From contig JBKOZO010000090.1 of NCBI GenBank assembly GCA_046725935.1, forward strand, positions 1-60,808: 60,808 nt of DNA. Reading direction: 5' to 3'. A model generated the notes under the pieces. The model ran no database searches. It was not told the DNA's origin and worked only from the letters and a program-made list of their open reading frames with translations. Made by a program: the position numbers and the translations under genes. This stretch comes from Acidobacteriota bacterium (GTDB taxonomy: Bacteria; Acidobacteriota; Thermoanaerobaculia; UBA5066; Gp7-AA6). Positions 1 to 5,029 of the stretch are shown one piece after another; the first letter of the stretch is position 1, and every line of letters begins with the position of its first letter.

Positions 1-1739
1 GCGCTGACGTCGCCGAAAGCCCGCGCGATCTCGGGAGTCCCCATCGCCCAGAAGATCGGCATGCGCAGCTCTTCGGTGAGCTTTCGCACATCGCTCTCGT
101 TCGACTCGACCGCGAGCGCGAGGATTTCGAGCGAATCGCCATGGCGCTTCTTCACGTCGCCGAGCCAGCCCAGCGTGCCGCGGCACGGCGGGCACCAGGT
201 CGCCCAGAGCTCCACGAGCACGACTTTTCCAAGAAGTTCTTTACCCGCGATGCCGCGGCCGTCGAGCCCCTGGATCGTGAGCGCCGGAAACGCCGCGACG
301 CCCGCCGACGCGCGCGGGGCGGCCACCGCCCTCGCGTCCTCCTTTCGGCCGGCGAGCACGAGGCCGATCATGCGCGAGAGGTCGTCGTGGAAGCGCCGGT
401 GCGCCTCGGCGCTCTTCAAGGGAGCATACCGGCCGCCTTCCTCCTTCGCGTCCTTTCCGTAGAAGCCGAAGTCGTTGGGCGTCGCGACGAGAACGTCGTC
501 GACGAAGATCGCGGGATAGCGCGTGACGCCGAAGCGCTTCGCCAGATCGGAATCCCCGTAGTTCTCCGAGACGAAGCGCGCCTGTCCCCCGAACTCGGCC
601 ACCGCGCGCTGGGCCAGCAAACTTGCCGGGTCGGAGATGTTTCAGGTGTACGGCCAGCGCACCAGAGTGACCGTGACGCGCGCCGGCGGGCGCGGCGGCG
701 CGGGGCGGGCCGGCGAGAGGGCCGCGAAGTACGCCGGCAGGACTTCGGAGACGATCGCCGGGGCTCGCTCGAGAGCCGGCTTCTTCTCGTCGAGCTCGGC
801 CTGCGCGCTTTCGAGGAAGGTCCGGCCGATGGTGTGATCGACGCCCGGCGCGGCGAGCGCGCGATCGAGCTCGGCGACCCGCGCGGGCAGAGCGTCGGCC
901 GCGACGGACGGCGAGGCGGGGGAGAGCATGGCGACCGCCTGGACCGTCTCGAGGTACCGCAGCATCGCTCCGTACCGCAGGCCCGCGGCGTCGAGCTCGC
1001 GCGCTTCCTTCAAGCGCGAGCTCGCCGCGATGAAGTCCGGGTGGCGATCGATCGAGGCCGGAGGCCGGTAGGCGGCGAGAAGGCGCGCCTCGAGCGCGTC
1101 GAGCTCCGGACCGAGCGCCCTCAGGGCGGGCGCCTTGCCCGGAGCCGCTTCGGAGAGCCGGCGGCACAGCTCGACGAGCTCGCGCTGGGCGCGCGCCTCC
1201 CCGATGTAGAAGAGGCCGGCGTCCGGCATGGTGTTACGCGCGTACTCGAGGCTCGTGTCGTAGTACAGCTTGACCTGAGGCAGCGAGGCCTCGGCCGTGG
1301 CGCGCACGGCGGCGGGCCGAACGCCGTCGAGGGAAGACGCCGAGGGCATCACGAGATCCGCGCCCAGAACCCCGCCCATGCGCTCGCGCTCGCGCTCGAA
1401 CGCCGCTTCGTCCTTGCGCTCGCTTTCCGAGCGCTCGTCGACGTAGGCCGAGGCGGAAAGGAGCACCCGCGCGGCGGAGAGGCGCTGGAGTGCGAAGTAT
1501 CGGCGTCCGGACGCGAGCGCGGCGCGCGCCTCCGCGAGCGCCGGCTCGGTGACTTTCTGGACATGCGCCCAGTTTTCGTCGTTCGACCGGTGGTCCTTCA
1601 CGAAGCGGGACCAGCGGTCGATTTCCTCCGCCTGCGGGTCGGCGGATGCCCGCGAAGATGCGCGCGAGGAGGCCTGTGTGGCGAGCGTCGCCGCCGAGAT
1701 CGCGAGGGCCGCACCGAAGAAGGCTCGCCGGAGGCGCAT
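1..1739 (-). CDS. Probable selenoprotein: signal peptide + helical domain + thioredoxin-like domain (UxxS) + TlpA/ResA-like domain (WCPPC); 3' end lies outside the window
   Basis: ATG at 1739 (MRLRRAFFG). The UGA at 644-642 is codon 366, in the context VTVTLVRWPYT-U-NIS. The same frame continues 213 codons without a stop to the window edge, through FGVTRYPAIFVDD and VVLVELWATWCPPC (CPPC at 194-183). A SECIS-like hairpin follows the UGA. Confidence 0.85.
614..629 (-). promoter_or_regulatory. Candidate bacterial SECIS element
   Basis: 12 nt after the UGA: CCGGCA-AGUU-UGCUGG, a 6-bp stem with G at loop position 2. The geometry resembles the E. coli fdhF SECIS. Confidence 0.7.
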
Positions 1740-1860: not shown

Positions 1861-2700
1861 GTGCCCCGGCCGCCGGACGCGACGTCGGAAAGAGTCGTTC
1901 TCGTGACGGGAGCGACGTCCGGAATCGGCCTCGAGACGGCGCGCGTGCTCGCGCGCGAAGGCGCTCTCGTCGTCCTCGGCGCGCGCGACCCGGTGCGCGG
2001 ACAGGCGACCGCCGACGAGATCGAGCGCGGCGGAGGCCGCGCCGAGGTTTTGCCGATCGACCTCGCGTCCTTCGTCTCGGTGCGGGAGGCCGCGCGGCAG
2101 TTCCTGGAGAAGCATCGCCGGCTCGACGTGCTCGTCAACAACGCGGGAGTCGCGCTTCGCTCGCGACAGGTCACGGCGGACGGCCACGAGCGGACCTGGG
2201 AGACGAACTTTCTCGGCGGCTTTCTTCTGACGCGCCTGCTGCTGCCGGCGCTGAAGGCCGCGCCGCGGCCCCGCATCGTCAACGTCAGCTCAGAGGCTCA
2301 TCGCACCGGAAGGATCGACTGGAGCAATCTCGAGCTCGAGAAGGGCTACGGCGCCTATCAGGCCTATGCGAACACGAAGCTCGGCCAGGTCCTCTTCACG
2401 CGCGAGCTCGCGCGGCGCGAGCCCCGGGTCAGCGTCAACGCCGTCCATCCCGGCACGATCGCCACGAACATCTGGCGCGAAGTGCCCGCGGGGCTGCGCT
2501 GGATCCCGCGCCTCATCTTCCCGTCGGCGGCCAGGGGCGCCGCTCCCGTCGTCCGCATGGCTTCCGCTCCGGAGCTCGAGGGAGTGACCGGGCGATACTT
2601 CAAGCGATTCCAGGAGGCCTCTCCGTCGTTTGCCGGCTCGAACGACGCGGATGCGGCCCGGCTCTGGGAGGTTGCCGAGAAGTCGACCGGCGCGCCCTGA
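1861..2700 (+). CDS. SDR family oxidoreductase (retinol dehydrogenase-like)
   Basis: TGATSGIG, VLVNNAG, YxxxK (YANTK), VNAVHPG; GTG start. Confidence 0.9.
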   Translation: MPRPPDATSERVVLVTGATSGIGLETARVLAREGALVVLGARDPVRGQATADEIERGGGRAEVLPIDLASFVSVREAARQFLEKHRRLDVLVNNAGVALRSRQVTADGHERTWETNFLGGFLLTRLLLPALKAAPRPRIVNVSSEAHRTGRIDWSNLELEKGYGAYQAYANTKLGQVLFTRELARREPRVSVNAVHPGTIATNIWREVPAGLRWIPRLIFPSAARGAAPVVRMASAPELEGVTGRYFKRFQEASPSFAGSNDADAARLWEVAEKSTGAP

Positions 2701-2787
2701 TCACCGGGAGTGGCCCGGGTCTTGCTCGGTTTGGTGTCGAGAATAGGTGCGCCCTGCACGCGGCGCCCGCACGAGAAAGGGGGCCTC

Positions 2788-3222
2788 ATGGCTGTCGAGC
2801 CACGCCGTGCTTCGGAGTTCGTCTACGCGATCACGCGGGTCATCCTCGGCCTTCTCTTCGCTTGCCATGGCGCGCAAAAGCTCTTCGGCGTGCTGGGGGG
2901 ACAGCGCGCCACCGAGCCTCTCATGATCTTCGGCGGCGCGATCGAGTTCTTCGGAGGAATTCTGATCGCGCTGGGCCTCGCGACGCGGGTCGCTGCCTTC
3001 CTGTCGTCCGGCGAGATGGCCGCGGCGTACTTCATGGCGCACGCGTCCGGAGGGTTCTGGCCGATACAGAACAAGGGAGAGCTCGCCGTGGTCTACTGCT
3101 TCGTCTTTCTGCTCATCGCGACGCTGGGCGGCGGACGCTACAGCATCGACGCCTTGATCCGCGCCCGCCGGCCGCCCGAGCACGGCCTCGGCGAGGCGGC
3201 GCTGCGCATGGCGAATCGTTAG
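2788..3222 (+). CDS. DoxX family membrane protein
   Basis: HGAQKLFG, EFFGGILIALG, NKGELAVVY motifs; the ATG at 2788 follows a purine-rich RBS. Confidence 0.85.
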   Translation: MAVEPRRASEFVYAITRVILGLLFACHGAQKLFGVLGGQRATEPLMIFGGAIEFFGGILIALGLATRVAAFLSSGEMAAAYFMAHASGGFWPIQNKGELAVVYCFVFLLIATLGGGRYSIDALIRARRPPEHGLGEAALRMANR

Positions 3223-3261
3223 GCAAGATGCCGATGGTGCGGGCTTCGTGCCCTCGAATTA

Positions 3262-4268
3262 CTAAGGCCGAGTCTGGTCTGCACTGCGGCTGCTAACCGA
3301 CGGGGACCGCTCTCTGCTGTCGTCGGGCGCGTCGAGCGCCCCTGAAAACGTCGCGCGCGGCATCGACGCCAGTGTCGCCGGCCAGCCCTGTCTCACGCTG
3401 GGCAGCTCCGGCCTCCACGAGCCCGCGTCGCGCAGCTTCCGGTTCGAGATGCGGAGCGACCGCGACATCAGCTCTCCGAGAGAACCCATCGCCCGCGTGA
3501 TCCAGGCCGGCGGAAACGTGGGAGGCGCCACGCCGAGAGTGTGCGCCAGGCTATCGAATACTCGCGATGCGTCACGGGCTCGTCGTCGGCGACGTTGTAG
3601 ATCCCCGCCGGCAGAGCCAGGGCCGCCGCTGCGGCACGCGCGGCGTCGTCGTGCGAGACCGACGAGATGAACGCCTGCGGAGGTCCCGGAAGCGGAGCGA
3701 AGCCGCGGCGCACCGAACGCACGAAGTCCTGGAGATGCCGCGCGTCCGGTCCGTAGAACGCGGCGAACCGCAGGACGACTCCGGTCCGTCCGGAACCCGA
3801 GAACTCTTCCGCGGAGCGCTCGGCGTCGAGGATCGTCCGGTTGTAGCGGACGGGTCGGACGGGATCGGTTTCGACAATCCAGTCCTCGCCGCGCGAGACG
3901 TAGATCGGTGCGAAGGACTCCTGGACGAACCGTGCGACGCCCGCGGCCGCGGCCTGTCTCGCGAGGAGGGTGGAGGCGATGCGGCGGATGCGGTCGTTCT
4001 CGCGCCAGGCTCCGGGCAGGAACATGCGGAAAGTCGAGGCCGGCATGTGCGTCGCGAGGTTCACGACGGCATCCTGGCCGGAAACCGCGCGCGCGACCGC
4101 GGTGGGATCGAACAGGTCGAGATCCACGGCGGCCGCGCCGGCGCTCTCGAGGGCGGCCCGCTTCTCGGGAGTTCGCGCCGCGGCCATGACGACGTGTCCC
4201 GCCTCGGCCAGCAGGGGAACGACGCGGCGTCCGACGACGCCGCTGGCGCCGGTTACGAGAACTCGCAA
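3262..4268 (-). pseudogene. NAD-dependent epimerase/dehydratase with a 1-nt frameshift near 3557 (real pseudogene or sequencing error)
   Basis: TTG start with GGAGG; VLVTGASGVVG. Restoring one T at TAT-TC (3557-3558) joins ORF 3468-4268 to ORF 3262-3531 as EYFDSLAHTLGVAPPTFP, giving 335 aa. Confidence 0.8.
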
Positions 4269-4290
4269 GTTCCTCCCCGGTATCTCCTCG

Positions 4291-4713
4291 CTATTCCAGC
4301 TTCGCGTCCATCGTGATGCGGGCGTTCAAGAGTCGGGAGACGGGGCAGTTTTTCTCGGCCGACTCGGCGGCCTGCCGGAAAGCGTCGCTGGAAGCTCCCG
4401 GGACCTTTCCGACGAGCTCGAGATGAGACTCGGTAATGGTCCAGCCGCCGCCGTCCTTGTCGAGCGAAACCGTCGCCGTCGTGCGCAGGCTCTCGGCGAC
4501 CAGTTTGGCTTTCCCGAGCTCGGCCGAAAGCGCCATCGTGAAACACCCGGCGTGGGCGGCCGCGACCAGCTCCTCGGGGTTGGTTCCCTTTCCCTCTTCG
4601 AAGCGGGTGGTGAACGAATACGACGTCTCCTGGAGAATTCCGCTGTCCGTCGAAAGCGATCCCTTGCCTGTCTTCAGGTCCCCGCGCCATTGCGCCGTTG
4701 CTCGCCGCTTCAT
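4291..4713 (-). CDS. osmC: OsmC family peroxiredoxin
   Basis: TNPEELVAAAHAGCFTMALS and NCPVSR; ATG at 4713 with AGGAGG. Confidence 0.93.
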   Translation of the reverse strand: MKRRATAQWRGDLKTGKGSLSTDSGILQETSYSFTTRFEEGKGTNPEELVAAAHAGCFTMALSAELGKAKLVAESLRTTATVSLDKDGGGWTITESHLELVGKVPGASSDAFRQAAESAEKNCPVSRLLNARITMDAKLE

Positions 4714-5029
4714 CGCCGTCCTCCTGTTGGAAGCCACTTTTCATTCAAGAATCGCGCCGGAAGAACGCCGGACGGGACGTTTCGTCACGGTTGACCGCGC
4801 GCATCCGGCGCCAATCGATTCGGCTTCGTGAACCGTCCCTCTGGTTCTCGGCCGCGGCGGTCGACGCTCTAGCTGTAGCCGGTCGCGGGCGTGAGAACGA
4901 CGATGCGATTCGATCGCTCGTCATCTCCTACAAGCTGCTCGGAACTCGGGAGTGAGCGCAGCGTTGGAATCTGACCGGTCCATCGGGGTCGAATCAGCGG
5001 CATTCATCCGAGCAAGCGCTCGCGACGGT

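What the first reader, a model, noticed from the sequence alone, without database searches (positions are those of the whole stretch)
1..1739. Unusual architecture: exported helical domain + UxxS thioredoxin + CxxC TlpA in one chain
Seen: the N-terminus LRRAFFG plus a hydrophobic stretch resembles a Tat signal. It is followed by an ~320-aa Ala/Arg-rich helical region with no Cys, then the UxxS domain, a linker, and a classic TlpA domain (WATWCPPC). Inference: an extracytoplasmic two-site redox relay, in which the Sec domain attacks substrate held by the helical domain and the CxxC domain recycles it. I do not recognise this architecture among the described bacterial selenoprotein families. DoxX and OsmC genes lie within 3 kb, consistent with a redox-stress neighbourhood.
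Basis: inference. Interest (0 to 1): 0.7.

Follow-up and report, generated by a model that had tools for sequence, protein, structure and literature searches.

The report
Exported three-domain selenoprotein, uncatalogued family
The apparent stop codon at window 644-642 almost certainly encodes selenocysteine, so this is one gene for a roughly 618-residue exported redox protein from a soil Acidobacteriota family that public annotation cuts in two and current selenoprotein lists do not contain.

Summary
Window 1739..1 is one reading frame of 579 codons, cut by the contig start. It has a single in-frame TGA at 644-642, in the motif VRWPYT-U-NIS.

All 82 copies from relatives' genomes have TGA at this position, followed by about 250 further in-frame, conserved codons. 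Rare homologues carry Cys there in a single chain. A hairpin lies 12 nt downstream: CCRGCA-RGUY-UGCUGG, with an invariant GU apex and a closing pair that covaries between A-U and G-C. Its core is like the E. coli fdhF SECIS. The genome has selA, selB, selD and tRNA-Sec.

The chain is: signal peptide, 310-residue all-alpha domain, minimal thioredoxin fold with Sec at the nucleophile position, then a TlpA/ResA-like CxxC domain. The all-alpha domain is confidently modelled but has no Pfam, NCBIfam or PDB counterpart.

The family is absent from a 119-family catalogue of May 2026 and from NCBIfam.

- The Tat-like motif is confined to this clade; most relatives have no Tat-like motif, and about nine have lipoprotein-type signals.
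- The helical domain has one non-conserved Cys.
- DoxX and OsmC are real neighbours but are not conserved ones.

The Sec-to-CxxC relay is a reasonable inference that I could not test. The substrate is unknown.

The parts
1..1739 (-). Selenoprotein gene, codons 1-579 of an inferred 618. The 3' end runs off the contig start and appears to continue on contig C93 of the same assembly.
1641..1739 (-). Signal peptide, residues 1-33 (MRLRRAFFGAALAISAATLATQASSRASSRASA), ahead of the conserved DP[LI]AAEI start of the mature protein. The cleavage site is not determined.
   Evidence: All 75 full-length relatives have a charged n-region plus a hydrophobic stretch. The Tat-like RRxF motif occurs in 3 of 75 and a lipobox in about 9 of 75.
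705..1640 (-). All-alpha N-terminal domain, residues 34-345, about 14 helices. It has no known family or solved fold. Invariant residues are D34, R146, E150, R207, Y224, P226, P227 and H233.
   Evidence: AF2 pLDDT 94.6 and pTM 0.93. Foldseek against PDB: best E 0.45, TM at most 0.28. No Pfam or NCBIfam hit. Conservation.
1164..1166 (-). Cys192 in the helical domain. It is not invariant.
   Evidence: Cys in 50 of 74 homologues.
642..644 (-). In-frame UGA, read as selenocysteine (residue 366), in the motif RWPYT-U-N-I-S-DP.
   Evidence: TGA in 82 of 82 copies and in 6 of 6 divergent relatives. Cys is at this position in P0003, P0007 and P0115. The Sec machinery is present in the genome.
614..629 (-). 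SECIS hairpin CCGGCA-AGUU-UGCUGG, starting 12 nt after the UGA.
   Evidence: 100% of cells pair in 81 sequences. The closing pair is G-C in 41 and A-U in 40, with no mismatch, and the GU apex is invariant. The same hairpin is kept in relatives at 35-39% protein identity.
330..677 (-). Minimal thioredoxin/glutaredoxin-type fold, residues 355-470, with topology b1-a1-b2-a2-b3-b4-a3. Sec sits just before the N-terminus of helix a1, Ser is at the resolving position, and Y408-P409 (the cis-Pro position) precedes b3.
   Evidence: AF2 secondary structure of the 86%-identical orthologue. Only sub-threshold Trx-family sequence hits. Invariant residues.
3..284 (-). TlpA/ResA/CcmG-type thioredoxin domain, residues 486-579, truncated by the contig start.
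   Evidence: Pfam AhpC-TSA, Redoxin and Thioredoxin. NCBIfam TlpA and ResA below cut-off. Foldseek TM 0.75-0.86 to ResA, CcmG and Etrx2, and about 0.6 to the longer TlpA chains.
183..206 (-). WATWCPPC active site. C516 and C519 are invariant.

Best explanation
Window 1739..1 (minus strand) is one gene for an exported selenoprotein of about 618 residues.

Shown here, or following directly from the sequence comparisons:
- The UGA at 644-642 is recoded as selenocysteine by the standard bacterial route. A SelB-type mRNA hairpin at 629-614, 12 nt downstream, has an invariant G-U apex, and the genome encodes tRNA-Sec, SelA, SelB and SelD.
- The product has a cleavable N-terminal export signal and three domains: an all-alpha domain of about 310 residues with no known relatives; a minimal thioredoxin fold with Sec at the nucleophile position (U-x-x-S, so no resolving Cys in that domain); and a TlpA/ResA-type domain with W-C-P-P-C.
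- Only three redox residues are invariant across the family: U366, C516 and C519.

Inferred:
- In the periplasm, the selenolate attacks an oxidised substrate (a peroxide, sulfenate, sulfoxide or disulfide). This yields a selenenic acid or a mixed Se-S adduct.
- The fused TlpA-type CxxC resolves this through a Se-S(C516) intermediate and ends up as a C516-C519 disulfide.
- A membrane CcdA/DsbD-type electron transporter, which the genome has, re-reduces that disulfide.
- The helical domain most likely forms the substrate-binding or specificity module.

My confidence in the gene model (one exported chain with Sec) is about 0.95. My confidence in the relay mechanism is about 0.5. The substrate is unknown.
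For: Recoding:
- TGA is present in 82 of 82 copies, with about 250 conserved in-frame codons after it.
- Six relatives at only 35-39% identity keep the TGA, the U-[SA]-L-S motif and the same hairpin.
- Cys homologues are single chains of 621 and 743 aa.
- The hairpin pairs in 100% of cells in 81 sequences. Its closing pair is G-C in 41 and A-U in 40. That switch couples a Ser/Gly replacement to a synonymous Leu change, which only RNA pairing explains. The GU apex is invariant, as are third-codon positions within the stem.
- TGA still terminates 23 of 75 family genes, so the code is not reassigned.
- tRNA-SeC, selB, selA and selD are in the genome.
- Two other ORFs in the same genome, one deiodinase-like and one MerB-like, carry an in-frame TGA followed by a GGUC hairpin 11-12 nt downstream.

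Architecture:
- The AF2 model of the 86%-identical full-length orthologue has pLDDT 88.5 and pTM 0.85.
- The C-terminal domain matches ResA, TlpA, CcmG and Etrx2.
- The N-terminal domain alone models at pLDDT 94.6 with no PDB match.
- In a profile search of 1.84 billion representatives, nearly all of the 150 best hits listed (of 778) end exactly at ...WPYT, and the six that run on beyond that point and were read are frameshift artefacts. So among the hits seen the helical domain does not occur alone or in another fusion.

Export: signal peptides in 75 of 75 relatives.

Relay:
- Only U366, C516 and C519 are invariant redox residues.
- A DsbD_TM gene is in the genome.
- There is precedent for extracytoplasmic TlpA-type reductases dedicated to one oxidised partner: CcdA to Etrx to MsrAB2 (PMC3914529), and the TlpA-ScoI and TlpA-CoxB mixed disulfides (PDB 4txo and 4txv among the hits).
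Against: - There is no experimental evidence of Se incorporation, and no RNA or protein data. No RNA runs were found.
- The gene is truncated in the window. The C93 continuation overlaps it at only 89% identity, so it may come from a co-assembled strain.
- Folding the 81 nt after the UGA is not more stable than shuffled sequence (z = 0.77), and Rfam has no match. The SECIS call therefore rests on conservation and covariation, not on energy.
- The hairpin lacks the bulged U of the E. coli element, and the spacer is 12 nt rather than 11.
- The middle domain reaches no family threshold. Its thioredoxin fold rests on the AF2 topology.
- I had no model coordinates, so I could not measure the distance between U366 and C516.
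- No conserved operon partner points to a substrate.
- The family is present in only 20 of 151 genomes of the class and is missing from some genomes of the same genus, so it is dispensable.
Confidence: 0.75

Rival explanations
1. These are two separate genes. The TGA is a true stop that ends a secreted helical protein, and a TlpA-like protein starts downstream at TTG 620. This is how public annotation calls the relatives.
For: Gene callers split the relatives into a product of about 367 aa and one of about 238 aa. A TTG lies 22 nt after the TGA in the window.
Against: - The stop is TGA in 82 of 82 copies, never TAA or TAG.
- The codons between the TGA and any possible start (N-[LIV]-S-D-P-A) are invariant or nearly so, with synonymous variation.
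- The TTG is CTG in about half the relatives, so no start is conserved.
- Cys forms are fused single chains.
- A second ORF starting there would lack the b1 strand and the active site of its fold.
Confidence: 0.02
2. The UGA acts as a selenium-dependent switch. When Se or SelB is limiting, translation stops and releases the helical domain alone as a functional exported protein. When Se is available, the full three-domain enzyme is made. Both products would be biologically meaningful.
For: Sec decoding competes with RF2 termination in bacteria (PMC8659212). The helical domain is an autonomous, confidently folded unit that ends just before the UGA.
Against: In the top hits the helical domain is never found as a stand-alone gene with an ordinary stop, or in any other fusion. 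The rare Cys forms would abolish such a switch. The truncated product would end inside strand b1 of the next domain.
Confidence: 0.12
3. The Sec and the CxxC together form a site that binds or transfers a metal or metalloid (for example Cu, Hg, As, Se or Te), rather than a catalytic oxidoreductase relay. The helical domain would act as a carrier or docking module.
For: - TlpA-type proteins service copper sites: the TlpA-ScoI and TlpA-CoxB complexes are among the structural hits.
- Many recently described bacterial selenoproteins are metal-related (PMC13188914).
- C/U-x-x-S is also the motif of the ArsC-type arsenate reductase row in that table.
Against: There is no hit to ArsC, a heavy-metal-associated domain or any other metal-binding family. 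No metal-resistance genes are conserved nearby. The helical domain has only one invariant His and no Cys or Met cluster.
Confidence: 0.12
4. It is a chaperone-linked redox protein (a holdase plus mixed-selenosulfide protector). The helical domain would bind unfolded envelope proteins, and Sec would form protective or isomerising Se-S bonds with their cysteines, in the manner of a periplasmic CnoX or DsbC/DsbG.
For: One source labels a homologue 'Spy/CpxP family protein refolding chaperone'. C-x-x-S thioredoxin folds typically work through mixed disulfides (established knowledge of monothiol Grx and CxxS PDI-type proteins).
Against: The Spy/CpxP label is not backed by any Pfam or NCBIfam hit or by a structural match. 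Nothing here distinguishes this from the general relay model; it is effectively a choice of substrate within that model.
Confidence: 0.1

Closest known systems
E. coli fdhF (formate dehydrogenase H) Sec-UGA with its intragenic SECIS hairpin
   Same: An in-frame UGA is followed at 11-12 nt by a short stem closed on a four-base loop with G-U at the apex. The core GCA-GGUC-UGC found in about half of the family is, as I recall it, the fdhF core. The requirement for the 11-nt spacing and for G23/U24 is described in PMC8659212. selA, selB, selD and tRNA-Sec are present.
   Different: There is no bulged U in the 5' arm. The spacer is 12 nt. The window itself has the AGUU loop variant. The protein is unrelated to formate dehydrogenase.
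Extracytoplasmic TlpA/ResA/CcmG/Etrx thiol-disulfide reductases, including the CcdA-Etrx-MsrAB2 pathway of S. pneumoniae
   Same: The C-terminal domain has the same fold (TM 0.75-0.86 to ResA, CcmG and Etrx2, about 0.6 to the longer TlpA chains), a WCxxC site, and an exported location. The logic of a dedicated reductase that recycles one oxidised partner using electrons from CcdA/DsbD is also the same (PMC3914529). The genome has a DsbD_TM gene.
   Different: Here the presumed partner is fused in the same chain and is a selenoprotein domain. Scores are far below the NCBIfam TlpA and ResA cut-offs (44 against 230 bits and 37 against 170 bits).
Catalogued TlpA-type selenoproteins: UGC-containing TlpA family / ResA-like WAxxUGC (NF041054), and thiol-disulfide isomerase-like UxxC
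   Same: They are exported thioredoxin-fold selenoproteins of the TlpA superfamily.
   Different: In those families Sec replaces a Cys of the TlpA active site itself. Here the TlpA domain keeps C-P-P-C, and Sec sits in a separate upstream domain with U-x-x-S. The score against NF041054 is 22-28 bits against a cut-off of 300.
Neisseria PilB (TlpA-like domain fused to MsrA and MsrB). This comparison is from my own knowledge and was not tested here.
   Same: It is an exported multidomain chain in which a TlpA/DsbE-like CxxC domain is fused to the catalytic redox domains it recycles.
   Different: There are no Msr domains here (no Pfam hit). The domain order is reversed. The catalytic residue is Sec in a thioredoxin fold. 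There is an additional novel helical domain.
Glutathione peroxidase-type selenoproteins (U-x-x-T in a thioredoxin fold)
   Same: Sec sits at the N-cap of helix a1 of a thioredoxin fold, followed by x-x-Ser/Thr. A single-selenol chemistry is recycled by an external thiol.
   Different: There is no PF00255 hit. I did not look for the Gln/Trp/Asn catalytic residues. The fold here is the minimal Grx-like version.

Membership tests
Bacterial selenoprotein (SelB/SECIS-dependent UGA recoding) | An in-frame UGA conserved among homologues, with coding conservation on both sides | tested here: met
   82 of 82 copies have TGA, plus 6 of 6 divergent relatives. About 250 conserved codons follow it.
Bacterial selenoprotein (SelB/SECIS-dependent UGA recoding) | A stem-loop immediately downstream of the UGA (about 11 nt away) with G(U) in the apical loop | tested here: met
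   A hairpin starts 12 nt after the UGA. It pairs in 100% of cells, the closing pair covaries between G-C and A-U, and the GU apex is invariant. It is not distinguished by folding energy and there is no Rfam model for it.
Bacterial selenoprotein (SelB/SECIS-dependent UGA recoding) | The Sec machinery is present in the same genome | tested here: met
   tRNA-SeC. selB at 313 bits, selA at 447 bits and selD at 370 bits, all above their cut-offs.
Bacterial selenoprotein (SelB/SECIS-dependent UGA recoding) | Homologues with Cys aligned to the Sec position | tested here: met
   P0003 (RWPYTCNLSDP), P0007 and P0115 (RWPYSCNLSDP). They are rare: 0 of 82 genomic copies.
Bacterial selenoprotein (SelB/SECIS-dependent UGA recoding) | Selenium physically incorporated at the UGA position | not testable with these tools
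   This needs 75Se labelling or mass spectrometry.
TlpA/ResA/CcmG-type extracytoplasmic thioredoxins (C-terminal domain) | A thioredoxin fold with the TlpA-type insertions and a WCxxC active site | tested here: met
   WATWCPPC is invariant in W, C and C. Foldseek TM 0.75-0.86 to ResA, CcmG and Etrx2, and about 0.6 to the longer TlpA chains. Pfam AhpC-TSA and Thioredoxin score at about the cut-off even though the domain is truncated.
TlpA/ResA/CcmG-type extracytoplasmic thioredoxins (C-terminal domain) | Equivalog-level membership (NCBIfam TlpA NF047696, ResA NF002854, DsbE TIGR00385) | tested here: not met
   Scores are 44, 37 and 22 bits against cut-offs of 230, 170 and 123. The full-length Cys homologues are also far below cut-off.
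Thioredoxin fold (middle U-x-x-S domain) | b-a-b-a-b-b-a topology, nucleophile at the N-terminus of a1, and a cis-Pro loop before b3 | tested here: inconclusive
   The AF2 topology fits (b1 356-362, a1 370-382, b2, a2, YP, b3, b4, a3). Sequence evidence is only sub-threshold: Thioredoxin_3 at E 0.04-0.14 in 12 of 49 members, HyaE in 12 of 49, PDB thioredoxins at E 0.24-1.6, and hhalign probability 6.8% over the a2/cis-Pro segment.
Tat (twin-arginine) exported proteins | An S/T-R-R-x-F-L-K-type motif in the n-region, conserved among orthologues | tested here: not met
   The window has RRAFF, but only 3 of 75 relatives have RRxF[LFIVM]. Most have K/R n-regions with no Tat-like motif, and about 9 have a lipobox. 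No dedicated predictor was available.
Catalogued prokaryotic selenoprotein families (119 rows, PMC13188914 Table 1; NCBIfam selenoprotein models) | A match to a listed family's domain model, with Sec at the listed motif | tested here: not met
   No listed row combines a U-x-x-S thioredoxin fold with a CxxC TlpA domain. The U-x-x-S rows are rhodanese, ArsC and Prx-like cd02970. The best NCBIfam selenoprotein model (WAxxUGC_long) scores 22-28 bits against 300. BSepDB and deep-Sep do not mention it.
Glutathione peroxidase | The PF00255 domain with U/C-x-x-T and the Gln/Trp/Asn catalytic residues | tested here: not met
   No PF00255 hit even at E of 10 or less.

The most novel reading that the evidence does not exclude
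This is the founding description of an almost obligately Sec-dependent family of exported selenoenzymes: 82 of 82 genomic copies are Sec forms, and only three Cys forms turned up among the 120 best database hits. Its 310-residue all-alpha domain would be a new fold that builds a substrate pocket around a lone selenolate, making a new kind of periplasmic reductase or peroxidase with a built-in TlpA recycling domain in soil Acidobacteriota.
Probability: 0.4. Interest if true: 0.75.

Novelty: new variant of a known kind. Interest (0 to 1): 0.62.

Why it matters
- Annotation: hundreds of database entries for this family are truncated 'hypothetical proteins' of about 365 aa, each followed by a spurious TlpA-like gene of about 240 aa. 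Recognising the Sec codon corrects the annotation in more than 220 species-level genomes.
- The catalogue: it adds a family to the prokaryotic selenoproteome from soil Acidobacteriota. In the catalogue I read, many of the metagenome-derived families carry marine labels (Sargasso Sea, GOS).
- Biochemistry: it couples a single selenolate (U-x-x-S) to a dedicated CxxC domain in one exported chain. It uses Sec almost exclusively, which makes it a good natural case for asking what Sec does that Cys cannot do outside the cytoplasm.
- Structure: the N-terminal domain is a confidently predicted fold with no solved counterpart.
- Practicality: because the SECIS closely resembles that of E. coli fdhF, heterologous expression in E. 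coli may work without re-engineering.

Tried and rejected
- Folding energy of the 81 nt after the UGA: not better than shuffled sequence (z = 0.77). This is uninformative in a GC-rich gene.
- Rfam at E of 10 or less: only a chance CRISPR-DR hit.
- Foldseek of the N-terminal domain against PDB: nothing significant. The best hits are designed helical bundles at E 0.45.
- Profile search of the middle domain against PDB sequences: chance endoplasmin hits and weak thioredoxins.
- hhalign of the middle domain against the TlpA domain: 6.8% probability, covering only the a2/cis-Pro segment.
- Conserved gene neighbourhood: none. The best cluster, an MBL-fold gene lying downstream, occurs in 17 of 75 loci. 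The DoxX/OsmC context is therefore rejected as functional evidence.
- A second paralogue in this genome: rejected. tblastn finds one copy plus the C93 tail, and C93 is syntenic with the downstream flank in the closest relatives.
- Longer database 'fusions' (P0015, P0086, P0143, P0147, P0209, P0213, P0221): these are frameshift read-throughs, not alternative architectures.
- The idea that this protein maintains the Sec trait in its class: rejected. selA is in 149 of 151 genomes, while this family is in 20 of 151.
- RNA-seq support: no runs hold the stretch.
- Code reassignment of TGA: rejected, because TGA terminates 23 of 75 family genes.
Full report
**1. What is in the sequence**

The finding lies on the minus strand. 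Starting from the ATG at 1739, the frame runs to base 3 and off the contig start; the window is the first 60,808 bases of contig C90 of its assembly. Under table 11 the frame stops at TGA 644-642, and a second ORF could start at TTG 620.

Reading TGA as U gives 579 residues. They begin MRLRRAFFGAALAISAATLATQASS, contain VTLVRWPYT-U-NIS-DPASLLAQ at residue 366, and contain WATWCPPC at residues 512-519.

Pfam recognises only the C-terminal stretch, as AhpC-TSA, Redoxin and Thioredoxin. The helical part and the U-x-x-S part match nothing in Pfam or NCBIfam.

**2. Is the TGA a selenocysteine codon?**

The genome carries tRNA-SeC, and selB, selA and selD all score above their curated cut-offs.

A word-indexed search of 5.8 billion proteins found at least 818 homologues. 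Most are about 365 aa long and end exactly at ...VTLVRWPYT. Three entries continue as a single chain with Cys at that position: P0003 (621 aa), P0007 (743 aa) and P0115.

A scan of one genome per species found 223 relatives, and I fetched 80 loci. They are almost all Acidobacteriota MAGs (Thermoanaerobaculia, Vicinamibacteria, Holophagales), with a few carrying other labels. In 82 of 82 copies the codon after RWP[YF]T is TGA. Where the contig allows, another 209-276 codons (typically about 251) follow in frame. The residues just after the TGA, N-[LIV]-S-D-P-A-x-L-L-A, are invariant or nearly so and show synonymous variation.

TGA is still an ordinary stop in these organisms, since it terminates 23 of 75 family genes. 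Six further relatives in the same class, only 35-39% identical, keep the TGA, a U-[SA]-L-S motif and the same downstream hairpin.

**3. The SECIS element**

Twelve nucleotides after the UGA lies CCRGCA-RGUY-UGCUGG (window 629-614). Across 81 distinct sequences every cell pairs.

- One stem position alternates between G·U (55 sequences) and A-U (26).
- The pair that closes the apex is G-C in 41 sequences and A-U in 40, with no mismatch.
- The apical G-U is invariant.
- All slid-register controls collapse to 50% paired or less.

The G-C to A-U switch couples a Gly/Ser replacement (GGU/AGU) to a synonymous Leu change (CUG/UUG). Protein-level selection does not explain that coupling. Third-codon positions inside the stem are also invariant.

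The geometry matches the minimal E. coli fdhF element as summarised in PMC8659212: an upper stem-loop 11 nt from the UGA, with G23 and U24 required in the loop. The bulged U of that element is absent here.

Folding energy alone does not single the region out (z = 0.77), and Rfam has no generic bacterial SECIS model that matches.

As an internal control I scanned the same genome for an in-frame TGA followed by a hairpin with an xGUx loop. This recovered a deiodinase-like ORF (FGSFT-U-PPF; PF00837 at 1.3e-35) and a MerB-like ORF, with GGUC hairpins 11 and 12 nt after their TGAs.

**4. One chain or two?**

Public gene calls split the relatives into a 367-aa product with no Pfam hit and a thioredoxin-like product of about 238 aa that starts about 37-40 nt after the TGA. 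Four observations argue against this split:

- No start codon is conserved after the TGA. The TTG used in the window is CTG in about half the family.
- A separately initiated product would lack strand b1 and the active site of its own fold.
- The Cys forms are fused single chains.
- A profile of the helical domain, searched against 1.84 billion cluster representatives, gave 778 hits. Nearly all of the 150 best that the tool lists end at the profile's last position. The six that run on beyond that point and that I read are +1-frame read-throughs of the same locus.

So among the hits I could see, the helical domain does not occur alone or in any other architecture.

**5. The missing 3' end**

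Only one copy of the gene exists in the assembly, plus a 34-residue tail at the start of contig C93. C93:1-2483 is colinear with the gene's 3' end and downstream flank in the two closest relatives: L018 at 85.6% and L017 at 89.9%.

C93 is therefore the syntenic continuation. It supplies ...AVPTLLLFDRQGRAAEAFYGAPPTLHSEAETTIAKLLR* for a total of 618 aa. However, the roughly 100-bp overlap between the two contigs is only 89% identical. That suggests a strain mixture or an assembly break.

**6. Anatomy**

I ran AF2 on the 86%-identical, complete orthologue L018 with a 74-row alignment. The model has mean pLDDT 88.5 and pTM 0.85. Its parts are:

- A signal-peptide helix.
- An all-alpha domain (residues 36-342).
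- A short Pro-rich linker.
- A minimal thioredoxin/glutaredoxin topology: b1 356-362, a1 370-382, b2 388-394, a2 399-403, b3 411-414, b4 417-420 and a3 445-463. Sec367 sits just before the N-terminus of a1, and the invariant Y-P lies just before b3.
- A second linker.
- A TlpA-type domain (490-617).

A pTM of 0.85 for three domains suggests a defined mutual arrangement. That is an inference, because I was given no PAE or coordinates.

The C-terminal domain superposes on ResA, CcmG and Etrx2 at TM 0.75-0.86, and on the longer TlpA chains at about 0.6.

The window's own helical domain modelled alone has pLDDT 94.6 and pTM 0.93. It has no significant match in the PDB: best E 0.45, TM at most 0.28.

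The middle domain gets only sub-threshold thioredoxin-family hits.

Across 74 full-length sequences the only invariant redox residues are U366, C516 and C519. Cys192 in the helical domain is present in 50 of 74.

**7. Export**

Every full-length relative where a start could be assigned (75 of 78; three loci lacked one) has a positively charged N-terminus and a hydrophobic stretch, followed by the conserved DP[LI]AAEI. The Tat-like RRxF[LFIVM] motif occurs only in the window's clade (L017, L018) and one other relative. About nine relatives have a lipobox.

Export is therefore a family property, while Tat targeting is not. I had no dedicated signal-peptide predictor.

**8. Context and distribution**

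DoxX, OsmC and two SDR/epimerase genes are real neighbours. That arrangement is shared only with the closest relatives. No neighbour is shared by more than 17 of 75 loci.

In an even sample of the class, the family is present in 20 of 151 genomes and absent from some genomes of the same genus. selA is present in 149 of 151. The protein is thus an accessory, lineage-restricted selenoprotein and not what keeps the Sec trait in the class.

The stretch or close relatives of it are held by soil and rhizosphere metagenome runs. No RNA runs hold it.

**9. How it most likely works**

Shown:
- One exported chain.
- Sec at the nucleophile position of a thioredoxin fold that has Ser, not Cys, at the resolving position.
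- A fused TlpA-type CxxC domain.
- A DsbD/CcdA-type transmembrane electron carrier in the genome.

Inferred:
- The selenolate attacks an oxidised substrate.
- The fused CxxC resolves the resulting selenenic acid or Se-S adduct and becomes a disulfide.
- CcdA/DsbD re-reduces that disulfide.

This is the logic of the CcdA-Etrx-MsrAB2 pathway (PMC3914529) and of the TlpA complexes with ScoI and CoxB (PDB 4txo and 4txv), here collapsed into one polypeptide. From my own knowledge, Neisseria PilB is another such fusion.

The helical domain is the obvious candidate for substrate recognition. Nothing I could run identifies the substrate.

**10. Known or new?**

The May 2026 review of the prokaryotic selenoproteome lists 119 families (PMC13188914). 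Its three U-x-x-S rows are a rhodanese form, ArsC-type arsenate reductase and a Prx-like cd02970 protein. Its TlpA-type rows carry Sec inside the TlpA active site (UGC or UxxC). None matches this architecture.

NCBIfam release 20 holds the curated selenoprotein models. It gives only below-cut-off TlpA/ResA hits, plus 22-28 bits against a cut-off of 300 for WAxxUGC_long. BSepDB and deep-Sep do not mention the family.

Earlier agents of this scan reached the same reading for homologues in five other genomes. Those notes are not independent evidence. I re-derived each point here.

**11. Verdict**

The recoding and the three-domain exported architecture are very well supported by comparative evidence. 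The Tat and neighbourhood arguments are not supported. The relay mechanism is plausible but untested.

The Sec-insertion mechanism and the thioredoxin-fold chemistry are known kinds. What is new is the family, its near-exclusive use of Sec, its U-x-x-S plus CxxC two-domain layout, and its N-terminal fold.

Noticed in passing
G000 contig C149:624-1706 (+), TGA at about 1278: A deiodinase-like ORF (PF00837, E 1.3e-35) has an in-frame TGA in FGSFT-U-PPF and a CCGCUC-GGUC-GAGCGG hairpin 11 nt downstream. It is a likely member of the known deiodinase-like selenoprotein family in the same genome.
   Followed up: partly
G000 contig C120:4637-5722 (-): A MerB-like ORF (PF03243, E 5e-25) has an in-frame TGA in AHWWDDIVFT-U-SRMLFF and a 7-bp GGUC hairpin 12 nt downstream. 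It is a possible Sec-containing alkylmercury-lyase relative. I did not check it against the catalogued SaoL family.
   Followed up: partly
G000 contig C93:1-2483 against window 1-106: C93 starts inside the same gene's 3' end and is syntenic with the downstream flank of the closest relatives. Its roughly 100-bp overlap with the window is only 89% identical, which suggests strain heterogeneity or a chimeric join in the MAG. A convergent MBL-fold gene follows on C93, as in 12-17 of the relatives.
   Followed up: partly
L080 (JBKKAU010000575.1), TGA at 148 and 1934: Two copies of the family lie in tandem on one contig, each with its own TGA and hairpin.
   Followed up: no
Proteins P0015, P0086, P0143, P0147, P0209, P0213, P0221: These database 'long forms' of the family are frameshifted read-throughs: the +1 frame across the Sec region reads ...RPLAVHLKPLRPGKFAG.... 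They could be mistaken for Cys or fusion variants.
   Followed up: yes
Class-level sample: selA is present in 149 of 151 genomes of the window's class, so selenocysteine use looks nearly universal in this acidobacterial class.
   Followed up: no
window 1861-4737: The upstream neighbours are an SDR (1861-2700, +), DoxX (2710-3222, +), an NAD-dependent epimerase/NmrA-like gene (3468-4268, -) and OsmC (4291-4737, -). This block is conserved only in the two closest relatives.
   Followed up: partly
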